From Muribaculaceae bacterium (GTDB lineage Bacteria; Bacteroidota; Bacteroidia; Bacteroidales; Muribaculaceae): 64,000 bases of DNA. This document shows positions 15,687 through 35,883 of the stretch, piece by piece. Below the pieces are notes generated by a model, which did not search any database, had not been told where the DNA came from, and saw only the letters and a list, made by a program, of their open reading frames with translations. The stretch is from contig JAGATN010000008.1 of NCBI GenBank assembly GCA_017621225.1, positions 62,952 through 126,951 on the forward strand, given 5' to 3'. Every line of letters starts with the position of its first letter. Within the stretch, counting starts at the first letter, position 1. A program made the translations under genes and the position numbers.

Positions 15687-15800
15687 AGTACAAAGGTAGC
15701 AATCTCTCATATAATTATCCCCCTAAAATGTGCCAAATTTTCAAAAAAGGTGGTCGGCCGCGCGGCATGCGTCAAACGGCCATGCAAAAAAACAAAATAA

Positions 15801-15962
15801 GTGTATGTTTACCTTTGGCTTATGTTAAGATTTAGAGAGCATTTCAGATTATGTTTGGAGATTGAATGAGGAAGTTATGGGGTACCATAACGACTGAATG
15901 AAATCTACAAACAGAACTGAAAGGCCTCTAAAGTTTTCATAAAGTTGAAAGTAAACATACTC
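15801..15962. repeat. 162-bp palindromic MITE-like element, copy 1
   Basis: Terminal inverted repeat GTGTATGTTTAC / GTAAACATACTC (11/12), TAA on both flanks, internal arms complementary along the whole length. Confidence 0.8.
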
Positions 15963-16028
15963 TAAGATTGCACATGCGAATATATTTTTCTATATTTGCC
16001 TTACCAATTAAAAAGCGCATTAAATATT

Positions 16029-30849: not shown

Positions 30850-31815
30850 ATGGGACATAATAACGAGAGTCGACGAAGCTTTTTGAAAAAAAGCATAATT
30901 GGTGCATCATTGGCCTTAGGAGCCGCCATAATGCCTAACGGCGTAATGGCCGCGCCGGCAAGCAAAAAGCACAAAAAGGCAAAGACGAAGCGAGTGCTGA
31001 TGATAGCGCTCGACGGCATTTGCGTGGAAGGCTTTGAAAAAGCATCGACGCCAAACCTCGACGCACTTCTGTCCAAAGGAGCATTATCGAAAACCACTCG
31101 CGTGGTAATGCCGTCGGTTACACAGCCTAACTGGATGAGCCATCTTAGCGGAAGCGGACCCGAGCAACATGGTGTGGATGCGAACGGATGGACGCTGACC
31201 AACCACAAACTCGACCCCGTGGATGCCGACCCCGACGGATATTATCCTACCATATTCAAAGTCCTCAAGGATGGCGTACCAAATATGAAAACCGCCTTCT
31301 ATTACAACTGGGGACCGCTGATCAATCCGTACAACCAACGATACATCGACGAAGTAAGCTTCGAGGACGATGACAAATATCTCGGCAACTATGCCAAAGC
31401 CATTGAATTCATGAAGCGAAACGTCAACGACCCCACGGCCATATTTCTGTACTCCGTGCACACCGACCACGCCGGGCACGAGCATGCGTGGATGTCGCCC
31501 GAATACATCGCATCGATCGAAGAAGCCGACAAAAACATAGGCGACCTGCTCGAAAAGATGGAATCGGAAGGCTTGACCGACGGCGCTCACATAATGTTCA
31601 TATCCGACCACGGTGGCATAAATCACGGACATGGAGGCATGTCGCCGCAAGAAATGATAGTGCCTTGGGGCATAACGGGCCCCGGCATCAAAAAAGGATT
31701 CACCATCGAAGAACCCAACAACACCGTAAACACTGCCGCCGTCGTGGCCGCGCTTTTCGGAGTGGAAAAGCCCCTGTGCTGGACCGGCGAAATACCGGAA
31801 TCGATATTCAAATAA
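30850..31815 (+). CDS. Tat-exported alkaline phosphatase-superfamily (NPP/phosphodiesterase) protein
   Basis: SRRSFLKK twin-arginine signal; IALDG, PSVTQPNW, DHAGH and SDHGG metal/nucleophile motifs. Confidence 0.85.
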   Translation: MGHNNESRRSFLKKSIIGASLALGAAIMPNGVMAAPASKKHKKAKTKRVLMIALDGICVEGFEKASTPNLDALLSKGALSKTTRVVMPSVTQPNWMSHLSGSGPEQHGVDANGWTLTNHKLDPVDADPDGYYPTIFKVLKDGVPNMKTAFYYNWGPLINPYNQRYIDEVSFEDDDKYLGNYAKAIEFMKRNVNDPTAIFLYSVHTDHAGHEHAWMSPEYIASIEEADKNIGDLLEKMESEGLTDGAHIMFISDHGGINHGHGGMSPQEMIVPWGITGPGIKKGFTIEEPNNTVNTAAVVAALFGVEKPLCWTGEIPESIFK

Positions 31816-31856: not shown

Positions 31857-33461
31857 ATGAACATAAAAAGCATATTTTTAGTAGCATTATCGCTATGCAC
31901 CACAACGCTCAACGCCCAACGCGTCGACCCCGACTCCATACCACCCGAACGATTGAGCTGCACAAGCATAATGGTGGGCAAAAAAGCATCGGCCGACGGT
32001 TCGGTAATGACGAGCCACACCTGCGACGGAAACTACCGCGCTTGGATGGACATAGTGCCCGGCACAAAATATGAGCGTGACACCACCGCAACGGTATACA
32101 CCGGACGCATGCATACCGACCACTCAACCGGCGCGCGCGGCATGAAACAGGCCGGCATCGTACCCGTCAAAGGCACTACCTACAACTTCCTTAACACCGC
32201 ATATCCCTGCCTTAACGAAAAGCAGCTTGGCATAGGCGAAACCACCATTGGCGGACGCAAGGAGCTTGAAAATCCCAAAGGCATGTTCATGATCGAGGAA
32301 CTCGAAAGGCTTGCATTGCAGCAGTGCACCACGGCGCGCGAAGCCATCCGACTCATGGGCGACCTCGTAAAGGAATACGGCTACGGCGACAGCGGCGAAT
32401 GCCTCACCATAGCCGACCCCGACGAAGTGTGGATGTTTGAGATATTCGGCGAAGGCCCCGACGCGATAGGCGGAGTATGGGCGGCTGTGCGCATCCCCGA
32501 CGACCACGTGGGCATATCGGCCAACATATCGCGCATATCAAAAATCGACCTCAACGACCCCGACAATTACATGGCGTCCGACAACGTGACCGAAGTAGCC
32601 AAAAAGATGGGATTCTGGGATGGAAAAGAGCCGTTCCGATTCTGGAAAGCTTACTCCGGCACCAACTACTTCAACGAGCCGAAAAACTTCAGCATACGCG
32701 AATATTACCTTATGAAGAAGCTCAACTCGTCGTTAAAAGCCGATTTCGACGACGAAGAACTCCCCTTCAGCATTAAGCCCGACAACAAGCTTTCGGTAGC
32801 CGACGTAATGGAACTGCTCACCGAAACATACGAAGGCTCGGAGTACGATATGACGAAAAATCTGAAAGTGGCCCGCAGAAACAACGAAAAGGTCGATTCG
32901 GTGACAAGCCCCATGGCCAACCCTTGGATGACATCGGAAATGATGAAAATGCTTAACGGCATCAAGGAAGGCACGGTGAAAAACTGGCGCACCGTATCAG
33001 TGCCTCAATGCGCATACTCCACCGTGATACAGCTTCGCGACTGGCTCCCCGACGACGTGGGCGGTGTGGCCTGGGTGGCATTCGACAACCCCGGACAAAG
33101 CCCGAGAATACCGATATTTTCCGGCACACTCGACCTCCCCGACTGCTTCAAAGTCGACGGACAGCTTCGCCACGACGAAAACGCTGCCTTGTGGGCGTTC
33201 CGACGTGCCAACAAGCTCTCTACGCTGAAATGGGGCGTGACGCGCGACAAAATGACCAAAGCTCGCCGCCACTTCATCAAAAAGGGCGTCAGCGAGATGC
33301 CGTTCGTAGAATCGCAGTATGACGAAATAATGAAAAACGAAGGTAGCGATGCCGCTCGTGAATTCCTGACCGACTATACCGCCGACTTTGCCGGCGCCGC
33401 CATACTGAAATGGAACGAACTGGGCAAACAGTTCTGGAGCATGTTCGGACGCGCCTTCTGA
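31857..33461 (+). CDS. C69-family dipeptidase
   Basis: CTSIMVGKKASADGSVMTSHTCD Ntn-hydrolase start; NEKQLGIGETT; IADPDEVW. Confidence 0.88.
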   Translation: MNIKSIFLVALSLCTTTLNAQRVDPDSIPPERLSCTSIMVGKKASADGSVMTSHTCDGNYRAWMDIVPGTKYERDTTATVYTGRMHTDHSTGARGMKQAGIVPVKGTTYNFLNTAYPCLNEKQLGIGETTIGGRKELENPKGMFMIEELERLALQQCTTAREAIRLMGDLVKEYGYGDSGECLTIADPDEVWMFEIFGEGPDAIGGVWAAVRIPDDHVGISANISRISKIDLNDPDNYMASDNVTEVAKKMGFWDGKEPFRFWKAYSGTNYFNEPKNFSIREYYLMKKLNSSLKADFDDEELPFSIKPDNKLSVADVMELLTETYEGSEYDMTKNLKVARRNNEKVDSVTSPMANPWMTSEMMKMLNGIKEGTVKNWRTVSVPQCAYSTVIQLRDWLPDDVGGVAWVAFDNPGQSPRIPIFSGTLDLPDCFKVDGQLRHDENAALWAFRRANKLSTLKWGVTRDKMTKARRHFIKKGVSEMPFVESQYDEIMKNEGSDAAREFLTDYTADFAGAAILKWNELGKQFWSMFGRAF

Positions 33462-33479
33462 CACCGATCCCGACTCTAA

Positions 33480-33641
33480 GAAACTGTTTAAATTTATTTG
33501 TCGAAGGAATTGAGAGGATTTGTCAAGTAGATTTTTGATATTTATGAAGGAGCTATGGGGTGCCATAATGACTGAATAAATATCAACAAGATGCTGACAA
33601 AGACCTCAATGACAAGACAAAATAAATTTTTAAACAGTTTC
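33480..33641. repeat. 162-bp palindromic MITE-like element, copy 2
   Basis: Perfect 13-bp terminal inverted repeat GAAACTGTTTAAA, TAA on both flanks, complementary internal arms, apex motif shared with copy 1. Confidence 0.85.
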
Positions 33642-33678
33642 TAACCGCCAATTAATAACTTAAATGCCTTAACATCAA

Positions 33679-35883
33679 ATGAGACGTAAATCATTTCTGC
33701 TACCGCTTTTTTGTAGTGCCGCTGCCATAGCAACGGCCGTGACACCCGATTCAAACACCGTAAAGATACTCCCGGGCGACAGCGCCGACGACATAATAGT
33801 CAAGGCGGCAAACGTGCGCCCGTCGGCCAACCAGCTTGCCGCACTCGAAAACGAATTCATAGCGTTCATCCACTTCGGGCCAAACACCTTCACGCGCAAG
33901 GAATGGGGCAACGGCATGGAGGATCCTCGAATATTCGACCTGAAGACCCTCGACACCGACCAATGGTGCAAAGCAATGAAAGATGCCGGCATGACGATGG
34001 TGCTGTTCACCGCAAAGCATCATGACGGATTCGTGCTCTGGCAAAGCCGATACACCGATCACGGCATAATGTCGACCGGATTCCGCGACGGCAAGGGCGA
34101 CATCCTCCGCGACCTGTCAGAGTCATGCAAAAAATACGGCCTGAAGCTCGGCATATACCTGTCGCCCGCCGACCTGTACCAGATTGAAAATCCCGCCGGA
34201 CTTTACGGAAACCTGAGCAAAAAAACCAAGCGTACAATTCCGCGCGAAGTACCCGGACGGCCGTTTGCCAACGACACCAAATTCACGTTTGAAGTCGACG
34301 ACTACAACGAATACTTCCTCAATCAGCTGTTTGAGCTGCTTACCGAATACGGCCCGATATACGAAGTGTGGTTCGACGGCGCACACCCCAAGCGCAAAGG
34401 TGGCCAGACATACAACTATGCCGCGTGGAAAGAGCTGATACACACTCTCGCTCCCAACGCCACGATATTCGGGCGCGAGGACATTCGCTGGTGCGGAAAC
34501 GAAGCCGGCAACACGCGCGACACCGAGTGGAACGTAGTGACCTATGACGTCGACCCCGACACAGCATCGCAGTTCCACGACATGACCGACATTGACCTCG
34601 GCAGCCGCGACCGACTGCTAAAAGGCAAATACCTCCATTACCAACCGGCCGAAACCAACACGTCGATACGCGCCGGATGGTTTTACCGCGACGACGACAC
34701 GCAGCAAGTGCGCAGCGCCGACGACGTGTTCGACATCTACGAGCGCTCCGTTGGCGGCAACTCCATATTCCTGCTCAACATACCGCCAAACCGCGAAGGA
34801 CGCTTTTCGGCCACCGACGTCGACGTGTTGCGCGAAGTGGGGCAACGCATATCCGACACCTACGGCGCCGACCTGCTTGCCGACGCCAAGGCAGCTTCGC
34901 AGCTGCTCGACGACGACCTATCGACTTACGTCGACTACACCGAGCCGATTGAAATAAAGCTGCCGTCACCGAAATGCATGAACCGCATAGTGATACAGGA
35001 AGCCATAGGCAGCAAGGGCGAGCGCGTGGAGAGTCACTTCGTCGATGCATGGATCGACGGTCAGTGGCGCGAGATAGCCGGAGCCACAAACATCGGATAC
35101 AAGCGCATACTCCGTTTCCCCGACGTAACCACCGACCGCATAAGGCTCCGCGTCGAAAAGTCGCGCCTCACACCAGCAATAGGCAAAATCTCGGCACACC
35201 ACTACAAGTCGCGCCCGCCGCAGCTCGTAGCGTCGCGTTCGCTCGACGGCATGGTGACCATACAGCCCAAGCCGCAAGGATTCGGATGGAAAGATCACGG
35301 ACAGGACATAACCGCCAATCTGAGCGCCGGATACCGCATACACTACACCACCGACGGCTCGGAGCCAACCGACAAGTCGCCCGTCTACACCACTCCGTTT
35401 GCCATGGGTGCCGGAACGCTCAAAGCCCTTTCGGTGCTGAACGGCAGCAACGGCCCCGTACTTAACGAGACGATGGGGTTGATAAAGGCCGATTGGAAGT
35501 CAGTCGACACCGATGGAGCCGACAAGCACTCCCCCGCCATGGCATTCGACGAAAATGCCGGCACCTATTGGCAGTCGGCCGGCGATAAGCCGACGTTTAC
35601 CGTCGATCTCGGCAAAAAGAGCAGCATAAACGGCATGGCCTACACTCCCCCGACAAGCTCATCGGCAGGCGCAATGATGACCAAAGGCACACTGCTGGTA
35701 AGCAACGACGGCAAAAACTTCAAAAAGGCAGGCTCATTCGAATTCGGCAACATGGTCAACGACCCGTCAAAAAGGCATTTTTACCTTAAGAAGCCCGTAT
35801 CGGCACGATTCGTACGCATCGAAATAGCCGAAACCACCGACGCGTCAAAACCGGTGGCCATTTCCGAAATAGACATATTTTAA
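33679..35883 (+). CDS. GH29 alpha-L-fucosidase with accessory F5/8-type-C and Fn3-like domains
   Basis: AFIHFGPNTF..EWG, TAKHHDGF, VWFDGA, SIRAGWFY and LLNIPPN motifs; YTTDGSEPT. Confidence 0.92.
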   Translation: MRRKSFLLPLFCSAAAIATAVTPDSNTVKILPGDSADDIIVKAANVRPSANQLAALENEFIAFIHFGPNTFTRKEWGNGMEDPRIFDLKTLDTDQWCKAMKDAGMTMVLFTAKHHDGFVLWQSRYTDHGIMSTGFRDGKGDILRDLSESCKKYGLKLGIYLSPADLYQIENPAGLYGNLSKKTKRTIPREVPGRPFANDTKFTFEVDDYNEYFLNQLFELLTEYGPIYEVWFDGAHPKRKGGQTYNYAAWKELIHTLAPNATIFGREDIRWCGNEAGNTRDTEWNVVTYDVDPDTASQFHDMTDIDLGSRDRLLKGKYLHYQPAETNTSIRAGWFYRDDDTQQVRSADDVFDIYERSVGGNSIFLLNIPPNREGRFSATDVDVLREVGQRISDTYGADLLADAKAASQLLDDDLSTYVDYTEPIEIKLPSPKCMNRIVIQEAIGSKGERVESHFVDAWIDGQWREIAGATNIGYKRILRFPDVTTDRIRLRVEKSRLTPAIGKISAHHYKSRPPQLVASRSLDGMVTIQPKPQGFGWKDHGQDITANLSAGYRIHYTTDGSEPTDKSPVYTTPFAMGAGTLKALSVLNGSNGPVLNETMGLIKADWKSVDTDGADKHSPAMAFDENAGTYWQSAGDKPTFTVDLGKKSSINGMAYTPPTSSSAGAMMTKGTLLVSNDGKNFKKAGSFEFGNMVNDPSKRHFYLKKPVSARFVRIEIAETTDASKPVAISEIDIF

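What the first reader, a model, noticed from the sequence alone, without database searches (positions are those of the whole stretch)
33477..33644. Second 162-bp palindromic element with TAA duplication, 37 nt upstream of the fucosidase gene (element copy 2)
Seen: TAA|GAAACTGTTTAAA...TTTAAACAGTTTC|TAA, with arms ATTGAG/CTCAAT, TTTGTCA/TGACAAA, TTGATATTTA/TAAATATCAA and apex TATGG-GGTG-CCATA. It has the same length and flanks as copy 1 and shares G-N4-TGTTTA ends. It fills most of the gap between co-oriented genes, and no TAnnTTTG promoter was seen between it and GH29. It is therefore probably transcribed as a roughly 75-bp rod that could tune downstream expression by processing, stabilisation or attenuation (inference).
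Basis: partly seen in the sequence, partly recalled or inferred. Interest (0 to 1): 0.65.

Follow-up and report, generated by a model that had tools for sequence, protein, structure and literature searches.

The report
Miniature transposon inserted before fucosidase gene
The 162-base palindrome in front of the fucosidase gene is one copy of a small non-coding jumping element (a MITE of the IS5 transposon family) that has spread to about 46 sites in this gut Muribaculaceae genome; a sister strain still has the empty site, and nothing shows that the cell uses it as a switch.

Summary
Window 33480-33641 is a 162-bp imperfect palindrome flanked by TAA on both sides (RNA fold -63.5 kcal/mol, z = -11.8).

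It is a MITE:
- The genome holds about 46 apex-bearing copies in two subfamilies, all intergenic.
- 29 of 37 full copies have identical 3-bp flanks (TAA/TTA, TCA/TGA, TTG), so the target is TNA.
- A sister lineage (97.9% identical flanks, at least 13 contigs read) has the clean empty site ...GACTC TAA CCGCC..., with only 52 nt between the C69 peptidase stop and the GH29 start.
- The terminal repeat GAAACTGTTTAAATTT matches that of ~870-bp IS5-family insertion sequences, one of them in the same genus. A related 893-bp IS (69% identical transposase) sits in this genome.

The regulatory reading is only partly supported. No Bacteroidetes promoter motif lies between 30850 and 35883, so read-through transcription from 30801 is plausible. 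On the other hand:
- the hairpin has no U-tract;
- it leaves the predicted accessibility of the start codon unchanged;
- inserted copies decay symmetrically on both strands;
- this sense orientation is the under-represented one (5:17 here);
- no RNase III gene was found in the genus.

This is a new member of a known kind, of modest interest.

The parts
33477..33479 (.). Left copy of the 3-bp target-site duplication (TAA)
   Evidence: The empty-site allele has a single TAA here. Flanks of other copies vary but match each other in 29 of 37.
33480..33641 (+). 162-bp MITE of subfamily 'fam2'. The + strand is the strongly folding, purine-rich orientation.
   Evidence: about 33 genomic copies at 92-98% identity. 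Fold -63.5 kcal/mol on + against -47.9 on -.
33480..33499 (+). Left terminal inverted repeat GAAACTGTTTAAATTTATTT
   Evidence: Its first 16 nt are identical to both ends of the IS5-family IS in L100, and of the same-genus IS in G005 (L286, L290).
33622..33641 (+). Right terminal inverted repeat (AAATAAATTTTTAAACAGTTTC region). It contains the one-mismatch -7-like box TAAATTTT at 33623.
33553..33576 (+). Conserved apex module CTATGGGGTGCCATAATGACTGAA: a hairpin tip plus an unpaired 3' shoulder
   Evidence: It is shared by all subfamilies and occurs in more than 106 loci of many Muribaculaceae species. Compensatory variants occur, such as CAATGC-GG-GCATTG.
33642..33644 (.). Right copy of the target-site duplication (TAA)
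31857..33461 (+). Upstream gene: peptidase family C69 (534 aa)
   Evidence: PF03577, E 3.6e-68
33679..35883 (+). Downstream gene: GH29 alpha-L-fucosidase with F5/8 type C domains (734 aa, signal peptide)
   Evidence: PF01120, PF00754
30801..30808 (+). Nearest upstream exact Bacteroidetes -7 promoter motif (TATATTTG), 41 nt before the PDE gene. It is the presumed promoter of the PDE-C69-[MITE]-GH29 unit.
   Evidence: The motif is retained in the empty-site strain. The promoter role is inferred from the motif only.
15801..15962 (+). Sister-subfamily copy ('fam1', TIR GTGTATGTTTAC), flanked by TAA/TAA
   Evidence: 14 full copies plus fragments in the genome.

Best explanation
Window 33480-33641 is a non-autonomous miniature transposon (MITE) belonging to a clade of small (~870-900 bp) IS5-family insertion sequences of Muribaculaceae.

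Shown:
- It is multi-copy.
- It has terminal inverted repeats whose first 16 nt are identical to those of such ISs.
- It sits in a TAA that was duplicated on insertion.
- A closely related lineage still carries the unoccupied site.

Inferred mechanism:
- A DDE transposase of the NF033580 type, supplied in trans, binds the two ends, makes cuts staggered by 3 nt at a TNA target and integrates the element.
- The copy landed in the 52-nt spacer of a probable PDE-C69-GH29 transcription unit.
- It is probably read through, giving a self-contained ~75-bp imperfect RNA hairpin between the two cistrons.
- It most likely persists as a tolerated selfish insertion. Any effect on GH29 is a by-product, most plausibly mild polarity or protection of the upstream segment from 3' exonucleases, and not an evolved regulator.

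The palindromic body is maintained by compensatory change across subfamilies. This points to selection on the element's own propagation and not on host gene control.
For: - Multi-copy: about 33 fam2 and 14 fam1 copies, and 8 contig ends fall inside the element. The apex motif occurs 46 times in the genome.
- All copies are intergenic.
- TSD: 29 of 37 full copies have identical 3-bp flanks that differ between copies.
- Clean empty site at this very locus: protein variant P0004, 13 contigs read and all 8 places shown, including an NCBI assembly. It reads ...CCCGACTC TAA CCGCCG..., and the 52-nt spacer equals 217 - 162 - 3.
- A second polymorphic site at C25:80485.
- Autonomous relatives: an 893-bp IS in C41 encodes a 259-aa transposase with NF033580 (IS5 family, 182.6 bits against a cut-off of 110), DUF4096 and DDE_Tnp_1.
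- ISs with TIR GAAACTGTTTAAATTTGATT in L100 and in same-genus G005.
- The fam1 and fam3 TIRs match other IS subclades.
- All 16 ISs examined are flanked by TAA or TTA.
- Covariation: 35 of 54 pairs changed on both sides, 0 of 500 shuffles reached that, and slid controls gave 9-15.
- Co-transcription inference.
- Tolerated and not recruited.
Against: - No transposase gene with exactly this TIR is in the 94%-complete assembly. The resident IS differs at 5 of 19 terminal positions, so the mobilising enzyme is not identified in this genome.
- For the ISs themselves, the two flanks are identical in only 9 of 16. That is no better than chance for TAA/TTA, so a 3-bp duplication is shown for the MITEs but not for the ISs.
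- Transcription across the element was not observed, because no RNA data were available.
- Paired positions vary less than unpaired ones among inserted copies (2.2% against 3.9%), and orientation is biased. Some functional constraint on inserted copies therefore cannot be excluded.
Confidence: 0.88

Rival explanations
1. One reading: the element is co-transcribed, and its ~75-bp RNA rod is a functional cis-regulator that tunes GH29 expression through processing, stabilisation or attenuation and has been kept for that reason.
For: - There is no promoter motif between the C69 stop and the GH29 ATG, and the ancestral spacer is 52 nt.
- The hairpin is very stable in the sense orientation.
- The insertion is present in every sample that carries identical flanking proteins.
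- Orientation relative to genes is non-random (5:17, p = 0.017), so transcripts do seem to 'feel' the element.
- Paired sites vary less than unpaired ones.
Against: - No U-tract follows the stem.
- Predicted accessibility of the start region is unchanged.
- Post-insertion changes are strand-symmetric (20 against 23).
- The sense orientation seen here is the depleted one, which suggests a cost and not a benefit.
- RNase III is not detectable in this genus.
- A sister lineage does without the element.
- The same element sits in convergent and divergent spacers as often as expected.
Confidence: 0.15
2. The insertion uncouples GH29 from the upstream promoter. The hairpin acts as a polar block, and GH29 is then driven weakly or not at all from a -7-like box carried in the right end of the element (TAAATTTT at 33623, 48 nt before the ATG), as outward promoters do in Correia elements.
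For: - A one-mismatch TAnnTTTG lies at 33623, at a plausible distance from the ATG.
- The TIRs of sister subfamilies and of related ISs contain the exact motif TATGTTTG, so the ends are promoter-like.
- Depletion of the sense orientation fits a polar cost.
Against: - The motif lacks the conserved final G and has no -33 TTTG partner.
- There is no terminator-like feature.
- GH29 remains an intact 734-aa frame, identical across many samples. That fits continued use but does not measure expression.
Confidence: 0.1
3. It is not a DDE-type MITE at all. It would instead be a hairpin element of another kind (a REP/RAYT-type or IS200/IS605-type palindrome moved as single-stranded DNA) or a small structured RNA gene.
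For: - The whole body is a hairpin that folds better on one strand (-67 against -49 kcal/mol for the consensus).
- The stems covary.
- The apex is conserved across subfamilies.
Against: - Matched, variable 3-bp duplications and a clean empty site. Y1 transposons make no duplication.
- The ends are identical to the TIRs of DDE IS5-family ISs.
- There is no replication-strand bias.
- No Rfam family matches.
- Copies occur in both orientations and in all intergenic contexts.
Confidence: 0.03

Closest known systems
MITEs of Porphyromonas gingivalis (MITEPgRS/MITE464, BrickBuilt) related to IS5-family ISPg elements (PMC4596501)
   Same: They are found in the same order (Bacteroidales), are non-coding, and their TIRs are identical or near-identical to resident IS5-family ISs. 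The ISPg4/MITE464 TIR GAGACTGTTGCA resembles GAAACTGTTTAAA and GAGAGTGTTTGAA here.
   Different: There is no sequence homology beyond the terminal bases. The P. gingivalis elements carry internal tandem repeats and inconsistent TSDs. The element here is a 162-bp full-length imperfect palindrome with a conserved apex and a consistent 3-bp TNA duplication.
Correia elements (CREE/nemis) of Neisseria
   Same: Both are ~100-160-bp hairpin-forming MITEs present in many intergenic copies and often co-transcribed with neighbouring genes, and both have TIRs resembling IS5-family ISs (PMC4596501 notes ISNme1). Known effects of Correia elements, recalled from established literature, are outward promoters and RNase III processing of the transcribed hairpin.
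   Different: Correia elements duplicate TA, not TNA. They have 26-bp TIRs and an IHF site, and their RNA effects depend on RNase III, which is not detectable in this genus. There is no sequence similarity.
ERIC/IRU elements of Enterobacteria
   Same: Both are imperfect palindromes of similar size (127 bp) found in transcribed intergenic regions. Their orientation-dependent effects on mRNA stability are recalled from established literature.
   Different: ERIC elements occur in a different phylum and have no known cognate IS or transposase. No sequence or Rfam match was found. Here the cognate IS family is identified.
Tourist-like MITEs of the PIF/Harbinger superfamily (eukaryotes), the relatives of bacterial IS5
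   Same: They make a 3-bp TWA-type target duplication, have short TIRs, fold back as hairpins and are mobilised in trans by an IS5-related DDE transposase (PMC2836001, PMC12730594).
   Different: They are eukaryotic and need two proteins (ORF1 and the transposase). The resemblance is analogy plus distant superfamily kinship; it is not membership.

Membership tests
MITE (non-autonomous DDE transposon derivative) | Short and non-coding | tested here: met
   The element is 162 bp. The only internal frame is an 11-codon apex ORF whose variation falls on codon positions 1 and 2 and whose stop is lost in G003 (sequences).
MITE (non-autonomous DDE transposon derivative) | Terminal inverted repeats | tested here: met
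   14/14 perfect, extended with mismatches to the whole arm.
MITE (non-autonomous DDE transposon derivative) | Target-site duplication, shown by comparing occupied and empty sites | tested here: met
   The empty allele has a single TAA and the occupied allele has TAA[162 bp]TAA. 29 of 37 copies have identical, copy-specific flanks.
MITE (non-autonomous DDE transposon derivative) | Many dispersed, similar copies | tested here: met
   About 33 fam2 copies at 92-98% identity, 14 fam1 copies and 46 apex motifs.
MITE (non-autonomous DDE transposon derivative) | An autonomous element with the same ends | tested here: met
   The L100 IS and the same-genus G005 IS ends read GAAACTGTTTAAATTTGATT. None with this exact TIR is in the G000 assembly itself.
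MITE (non-autonomous DDE transposon derivative) | Mobilisation in trans by that transposase | not testable with these tools
   This needs a transposition assay. Insertion polymorphism between strains shows past mobility only.
IS5 family, small single-ORF subgroup (IS1031/ISL2-like; the subgroup assignment is from memory of ISfinder) | The cognate transposase is an IS5-family DDE enzyme | tested here: met
   NF033580 scores 182.6 bits (cut-off 110), with PF13340 and PF01609. The L100 transposase is 69% identical.
IS5 family, small single-ORF subgroup (IS1031/ISL2-like; the subgroup assignment is from memory of ISfinder) | 3-bp TNA duplication on the ISs themselves | tested here: inconclusive
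   All 16 ISs are flanked by TAA or TTA on both sides, but the two flanks are identical in only 9 of 16, which is the chance level.
Correia element (Neisseria) | TA duplication, 26-bp TIR, Neisseria sequence family | tested here: not met
   The duplication is 3-bp TNA, there is no sequence relation, and the host is Muribaculaceae.
Catalogued structured RNA family (Rfam) | Match to a covariance model | tested here: not met
   No hit at E <= 1 in 33300-33800 on either strand.

The most novel reading that the evidence does not exclude
The palindromic body with its invariant apex is a selected, strand-specific structural module acting as RNA or single-stranded DNA. It travels with several IS5-type end sequences and is needed for the element's propagation or persistence. 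Such long-hairpin MITEs have been able to spread in operons specifically in those Muribaculaceae lineages that have lost RNase III. In the sample, the MITE-bearing and RNase III-bearing genera do not overlap at all. In that reading, the sense-oriented copy before GH29 would measurably alter the fate of the operon mRNA.
Probability: 0.18. Interest if true: 0.6.

Novelty: new member of a known kind. Interest (0 to 1): 0.36.

Why it matters
It is a recently active MITE family of Muribaculaceae, a dominant but poorly studied family of gut bacteria. The cognate IS family, target rule and an occupied/empty allele pair at a defined operon spacer are now identified.

That allele pair is a ready-made natural experiment for asking what a 75-bp hairpin does to a polycistronic mRNA in a Bacteroidota lineage that seems to lack RNase III.

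The repeats also explain contig breaks in assemblies of this species and provide strain markers.

As a regulatory discovery it is weak, because nothing shows that the host uses the element.

Tried and rejected
- An exact-pattern search of JGI metagenomes for the empty site found nothing. The real empty allele differs by one base (A to G) inside the pattern.
- GH29 orthologues in 50 genomes of the genus are never next to a C69 gene. Cross-species synteny therefore gave no empty site.
- Contigs with identical C69 and GH29 proteins all carry the element or break in it. The same holds for the copies at C35:65092, C22:31568 and C20:31863.
- A 1.4-kb interval in C30 between fam1 ends is recA flanked by fragments; it is not an IS.
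- The second DDE_Tnp_1 locus (C45) is an unrelated, degraded IS.
- PF13359 (Harbinger-type DDE) is absent.
- No replication-strand bias: about 28 anti against 20 co with GC skew.
- The 11-codon apex ORF was rejected as coding.
- No match in phage or plasmid collections.
- The sigma-70 promoter scan does not apply to Bacteroidota and was not used.
- The 'unoccupied' allele at C25:80485 reads TTA-GTA-TTA. It is not a clean empty site, being either a 6-bp indel or a footprint.

Full report
**1. The observation**

The sequence is as described. TAA lies at 33477-33479. A 162-bp element follows at 33480-33641, beginning GAAACTGTTTAAA and ending TTTAAACAGTTTC. TAA lies again at 33642-33644, and the ATG of the next gene is at 33679.

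The outermost arms are 14/14 complementary, and the inner arms and the apex TATGG-GGTG-CCATA are present. As RNA the stretch folds into one long imperfect hairpin of -63.5 kcal/mol. Shuffles average -25.3 +/- 3.2, giving z = -11.8. As DNA z = -8.7.

'Copy 1' is at 15798-15965. It has the same length, TAA flanks, TGTTTA ends and an apex about 83% identical. The flanking genes are a C69 peptidase (31857-33461) and a GH29 alpha-L-fucosidase with F5/8 type C domains (33679-35883).

**2. It is a multi-copy mobile element**

The window lies in a 2.53-Mb, 47-contig, 94%-complete genome. Titles of related records place it in Muribaculaceae.

Copy numbers and positions:
- BLAST of the two copies against the genome finds about 33 full or near-full copies of the copy-2 type ('fam2', 92-98% identical).
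- It also finds 14 full copies of the copy-1 type ('fam1', 87-96%), plus fragments and short internally deleted derivatives.
- Eight contig ends fall inside a fam2 copy, which is the signature of a repeat that breaks assemblies.
- The apex motif occurs 46 times.
- All copies are intergenic.

Target-site duplication:
- 29 of 37 full copies have identical 3-bp flanks on both sides.
- Of these, 25 are TAA or TTA, 3 are TCA or TGA and 1 is TTG.
- The flanks are therefore a true target-site duplication with consensus TNA and not part of the element.

**3. Empty site at this very locus**

Proteins identical to the window's C69 and GH29 occur on many public contigs. All of them carry the element or end in it.

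The 90% cluster of the C69 protein contains a variant, P0004. Thirteen contigs carrying it were read. All 8 places shown, from different runs and one NCBI assembly, span both genes with only 52 nt between stop and start.

- The empty allele reads ...CACCGATCCCGACTC TAA CCGCCGATTAATAAC...
- The window reads ...CACCGATCCCGACTC TAA [162 bp] TAA CCGCCAATTAATAAC...
- The flanking genes are 97.9% identical.
- 217 - 162 - 3 = 52, so this is a precise insertion with a TAA duplication that arose after the two lineages split.

A second copy (C25:80485) is also polymorphic between samples. There the unoccupied allele reads TTA-GTA-TTA and is not clean.

**4. The autonomous partners**

The genome has one intact small IS, in C41 at about 1594-2486.
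- It is 893 bp long with a 19-bp perfect TIR, GAGAGTGTTTGAATTTAAA, and TAA/TTA flanks.
- It encodes a 259-aa protein that matches NCBIfam NF033580 'IS5 family transposase' (182.6 bits against a cut-off of 110), together with DUF4096 and DDE_Tnp_1.

Relatives of this transposase in other Muribaculaceae define IS subclades whose ends match each MITE subfamily.
- GAAACTGTTTAAATTTGATT (L100, transposase 69% identical) matches the fam2 ends for the first 16 bases.
- GAGTATGTTTACTTTTAA (L091, L092, L093, L101, L112) matches fam1.
- GAG(A/T)(G/A)TGTTTGAATTTAAA (L082, L083, L088, C41) matches a third MITE subfamily seen in other species (L066, L072, G003).

An IS with the fam2-type ends and a transposase 94-95% identical to L100's is present, split over two contigs, in G005, a genome of the same genus. 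No copy with exactly these ends is in this assembly.

All 16 ISs examined are flanked by TAA or TTA. The two flanks are identical in only 9 of the 16, so the 3-bp duplication is demonstrated for the MITEs and not for the ISs.

The size, single ORF, GAG/GA ends and TNA target fit the IS1031/ISL2-like part of the IS5 family. This subgroup assignment is from my memory of ISfinder and was not tested. IS5's eukaryotic relatives, PIF/Harbinger, likewise make 3-bp duplications and mobilise Tourist MITEs (PMC12730594, PMC2836001).

**5. The hairpin body**

Ten representatives of the subfamilies were aligned.
- They keep one common hairpin, with 90.9% of cells paired.
- 35 of 54 pairs changed on both sides. 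None of 500 shuffles reached that, and slid controls gave 9-15.
- In the interior helix, 20 of 22 pairs show compensatory change.

Covariation of the outer ~20 bp is expected, because both ends must fit one transposase. Covariation of the interior is not.

The fold is strand-asymmetric. The consensus gives -67.0 against -49.0 kcal/mol for fam2 and -73.3 against -52.3 for fam1. This comes mainly from purine-rich mismatches and a few G-U pairs on one strand.

I re-derived the asymmetry, the IS5 link and the absence of an Rfam match. I saw the module inside an IS only as one IS-MITE chimera (L092).

Among inserted copies:
- changes that create a wobble on the + strand (20) and on the - strand (23) are equal (7 and 7 for fam1);
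- paired sites vary somewhat less than unpaired ones (2.2% against 3.9%).

I read this as selection acting mainly on the propagating lineages and not on each resident copy.

**6. Does it regulate GH29?**

Points consistent with co-transcription:
- There is no exact TAnnTTTG in 33380-33720 on either strand.
- The best motif near GH29 is TAAATTTT at 33623, inside the right end, without a -33 TTTG.
- Across 28-37 kb the + strand has three exact motifs. Two sit in spacers just upstream of genes: 30801 before the PDE gene and 36001 before the FKBP gene. None lies between 30850 and 35883.
- The ancestral spacer of 52 nt also lacks a motif.

So PDE-C69-GH29 probably form one unit, and the element is probably read through in its strongly folding orientation. 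This is an inference from motifs. The consensus itself is established knowledge for Bacteroides promoters.

Points against an evolved regulatory role:
- No terminator-like stem with a U-tract lies on the + strand.
- The hairpin is self-contained. The mean unpaired probability around the GH29 start is 0.602 with and without it.
- Between co-oriented genes the strong strand is in sense in only 5 of 22 cases in this genome (p = 0.017).
- It is in sense in 13 of 35 cases in other species (p = 0.18; a partly overlapping set gave 3 of 12). Pooling searches gives 18:39.
- There is no bias with respect to GC skew.

The GH29 copy is thus in the depleted orientation, which suggests a mild cost of the strong hairpin in transcripts and not a benefit.

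RNase III also appears to be missing, although it is the enzyme that processes such rods in other bacteria.
- It is not detectable in this genome or in 9 genomes of the genus, while 4 other families of the order have it.
- Across 151 good Muribaculaceae genomes, only 8 of 29 genera have it.

The test that would decide the matter, RNA end mapping, could not be run.

**7. Comparison and novelty**

MITEs with IS5-type ends are known in Bacteroidales (P. gingivalis, PMC4596501). MITEs have also been censused in bulk in Bacteroidota (PMC11602168). In full-text searches I found no description of this Muribaculaceae family.

The element works like a Correia or ERIC-type hairpin MITE, but it fails membership of those families on target duplication, sequence and host. 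I classify it as a new member of a known kind.

**8. Verdict**

The element's identity as an IS5-family MITE insertion, with the empty site in hand, is very likely (about 0.9). Co-transcription is plausible (about 0.6, inferred). A selected regulatory function is unlikely (about 0.15).

Interest is modest. The main leads worth following are the covarying, strand-asymmetric hairpin, the orientation bias, and the non-overlap of these MITEs with RNase III-bearing genera (genus-level hypergeometric probability about 0.03, confounded by phylogeny).

Noticed in passing
Whole genome G000 and Muribaculaceae relatives: No RNase III gene is detectable in this genome or in 9 genomes of its genus, and only 8 of 29 Muribaculaceae genera (30 of 151 good genomes) have one. 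The 9 genera carrying the hairpin-MITE apex motif and the 8 RNase III-positive genera do not overlap. Phylogeny confounds this.
   Followed up: partly
G000 contigs genome-wide (apex motif 37 forward: 9 reverse); also G179 (22:8): The element points the same way on most contigs although contig orientation should be arbitrary. GC skew does not explain this. It may be an assembler artefact tied to the repeat.
   Followed up: partly
G000 C16:39732, C19:2453, C23:34783 (outside the window), C34:13470, C41:3531; C36:44978, C29:25460, C42:19500-19583: There are tiny derivatives flanked by duplications: 14-bp GAGTATGTTTACTC, and 20-, 32- and 84-bp fam2 mini-palindromes. The interior of the palindrome is evidently lost repeatedly, leaving the ends.
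   Followed up: partly
G000 C30:11516-12931: recA is bracketed by a fam1 left-end fragment and a 75-bp internally deleted fam1 copy.
   Followed up: no
G000 C8:90628-90958: A fam2 copy and a fam1 copy lie head to tail and share one TCA between them.
   Followed up: no
L092 385-545 (MGYG-HGUT-00448); L285 (G044): In L092 a fam1-like MITE replaces the left end of the IS, forming an IS-MITE chimera. In L285 an IS abuts a fam2-like MITE.
   Followed up: no
Window 30850-31815 compared with L179 1290-1460: The phosphodiesterase gene upstream of C69 is largely deleted in the empty-site lineage, leaving 72- and 44-codon remnants, while the promoter-like TATATTTG is kept.
   Followed up: no
L166 2790-2810 (allele of G000 C25:80485): The unoccupied allele reads TTA-GTA-TTA where the occupied one has TTA[element]TTA. 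This is either a 6-bp indel or an excision footprint. The TTA duplication supplies part of the TAG stop of the FolC-like gene and the TAA stop of the convergent RidA gene.
   Followed up: partly
TIRs of the fam3 MITEs and of ISs such as L088 (GAGTATGTTTGAATTT); fam1 interior (GAGTATGTTTGGAG): The exact Bacteroidetes -7 motif TATGTTTG lies inside the terminal repeats, facing inwards. This fits a transposase promoter in the IS end, and it would give convergent transcription in MITEs.
   Followed up: no
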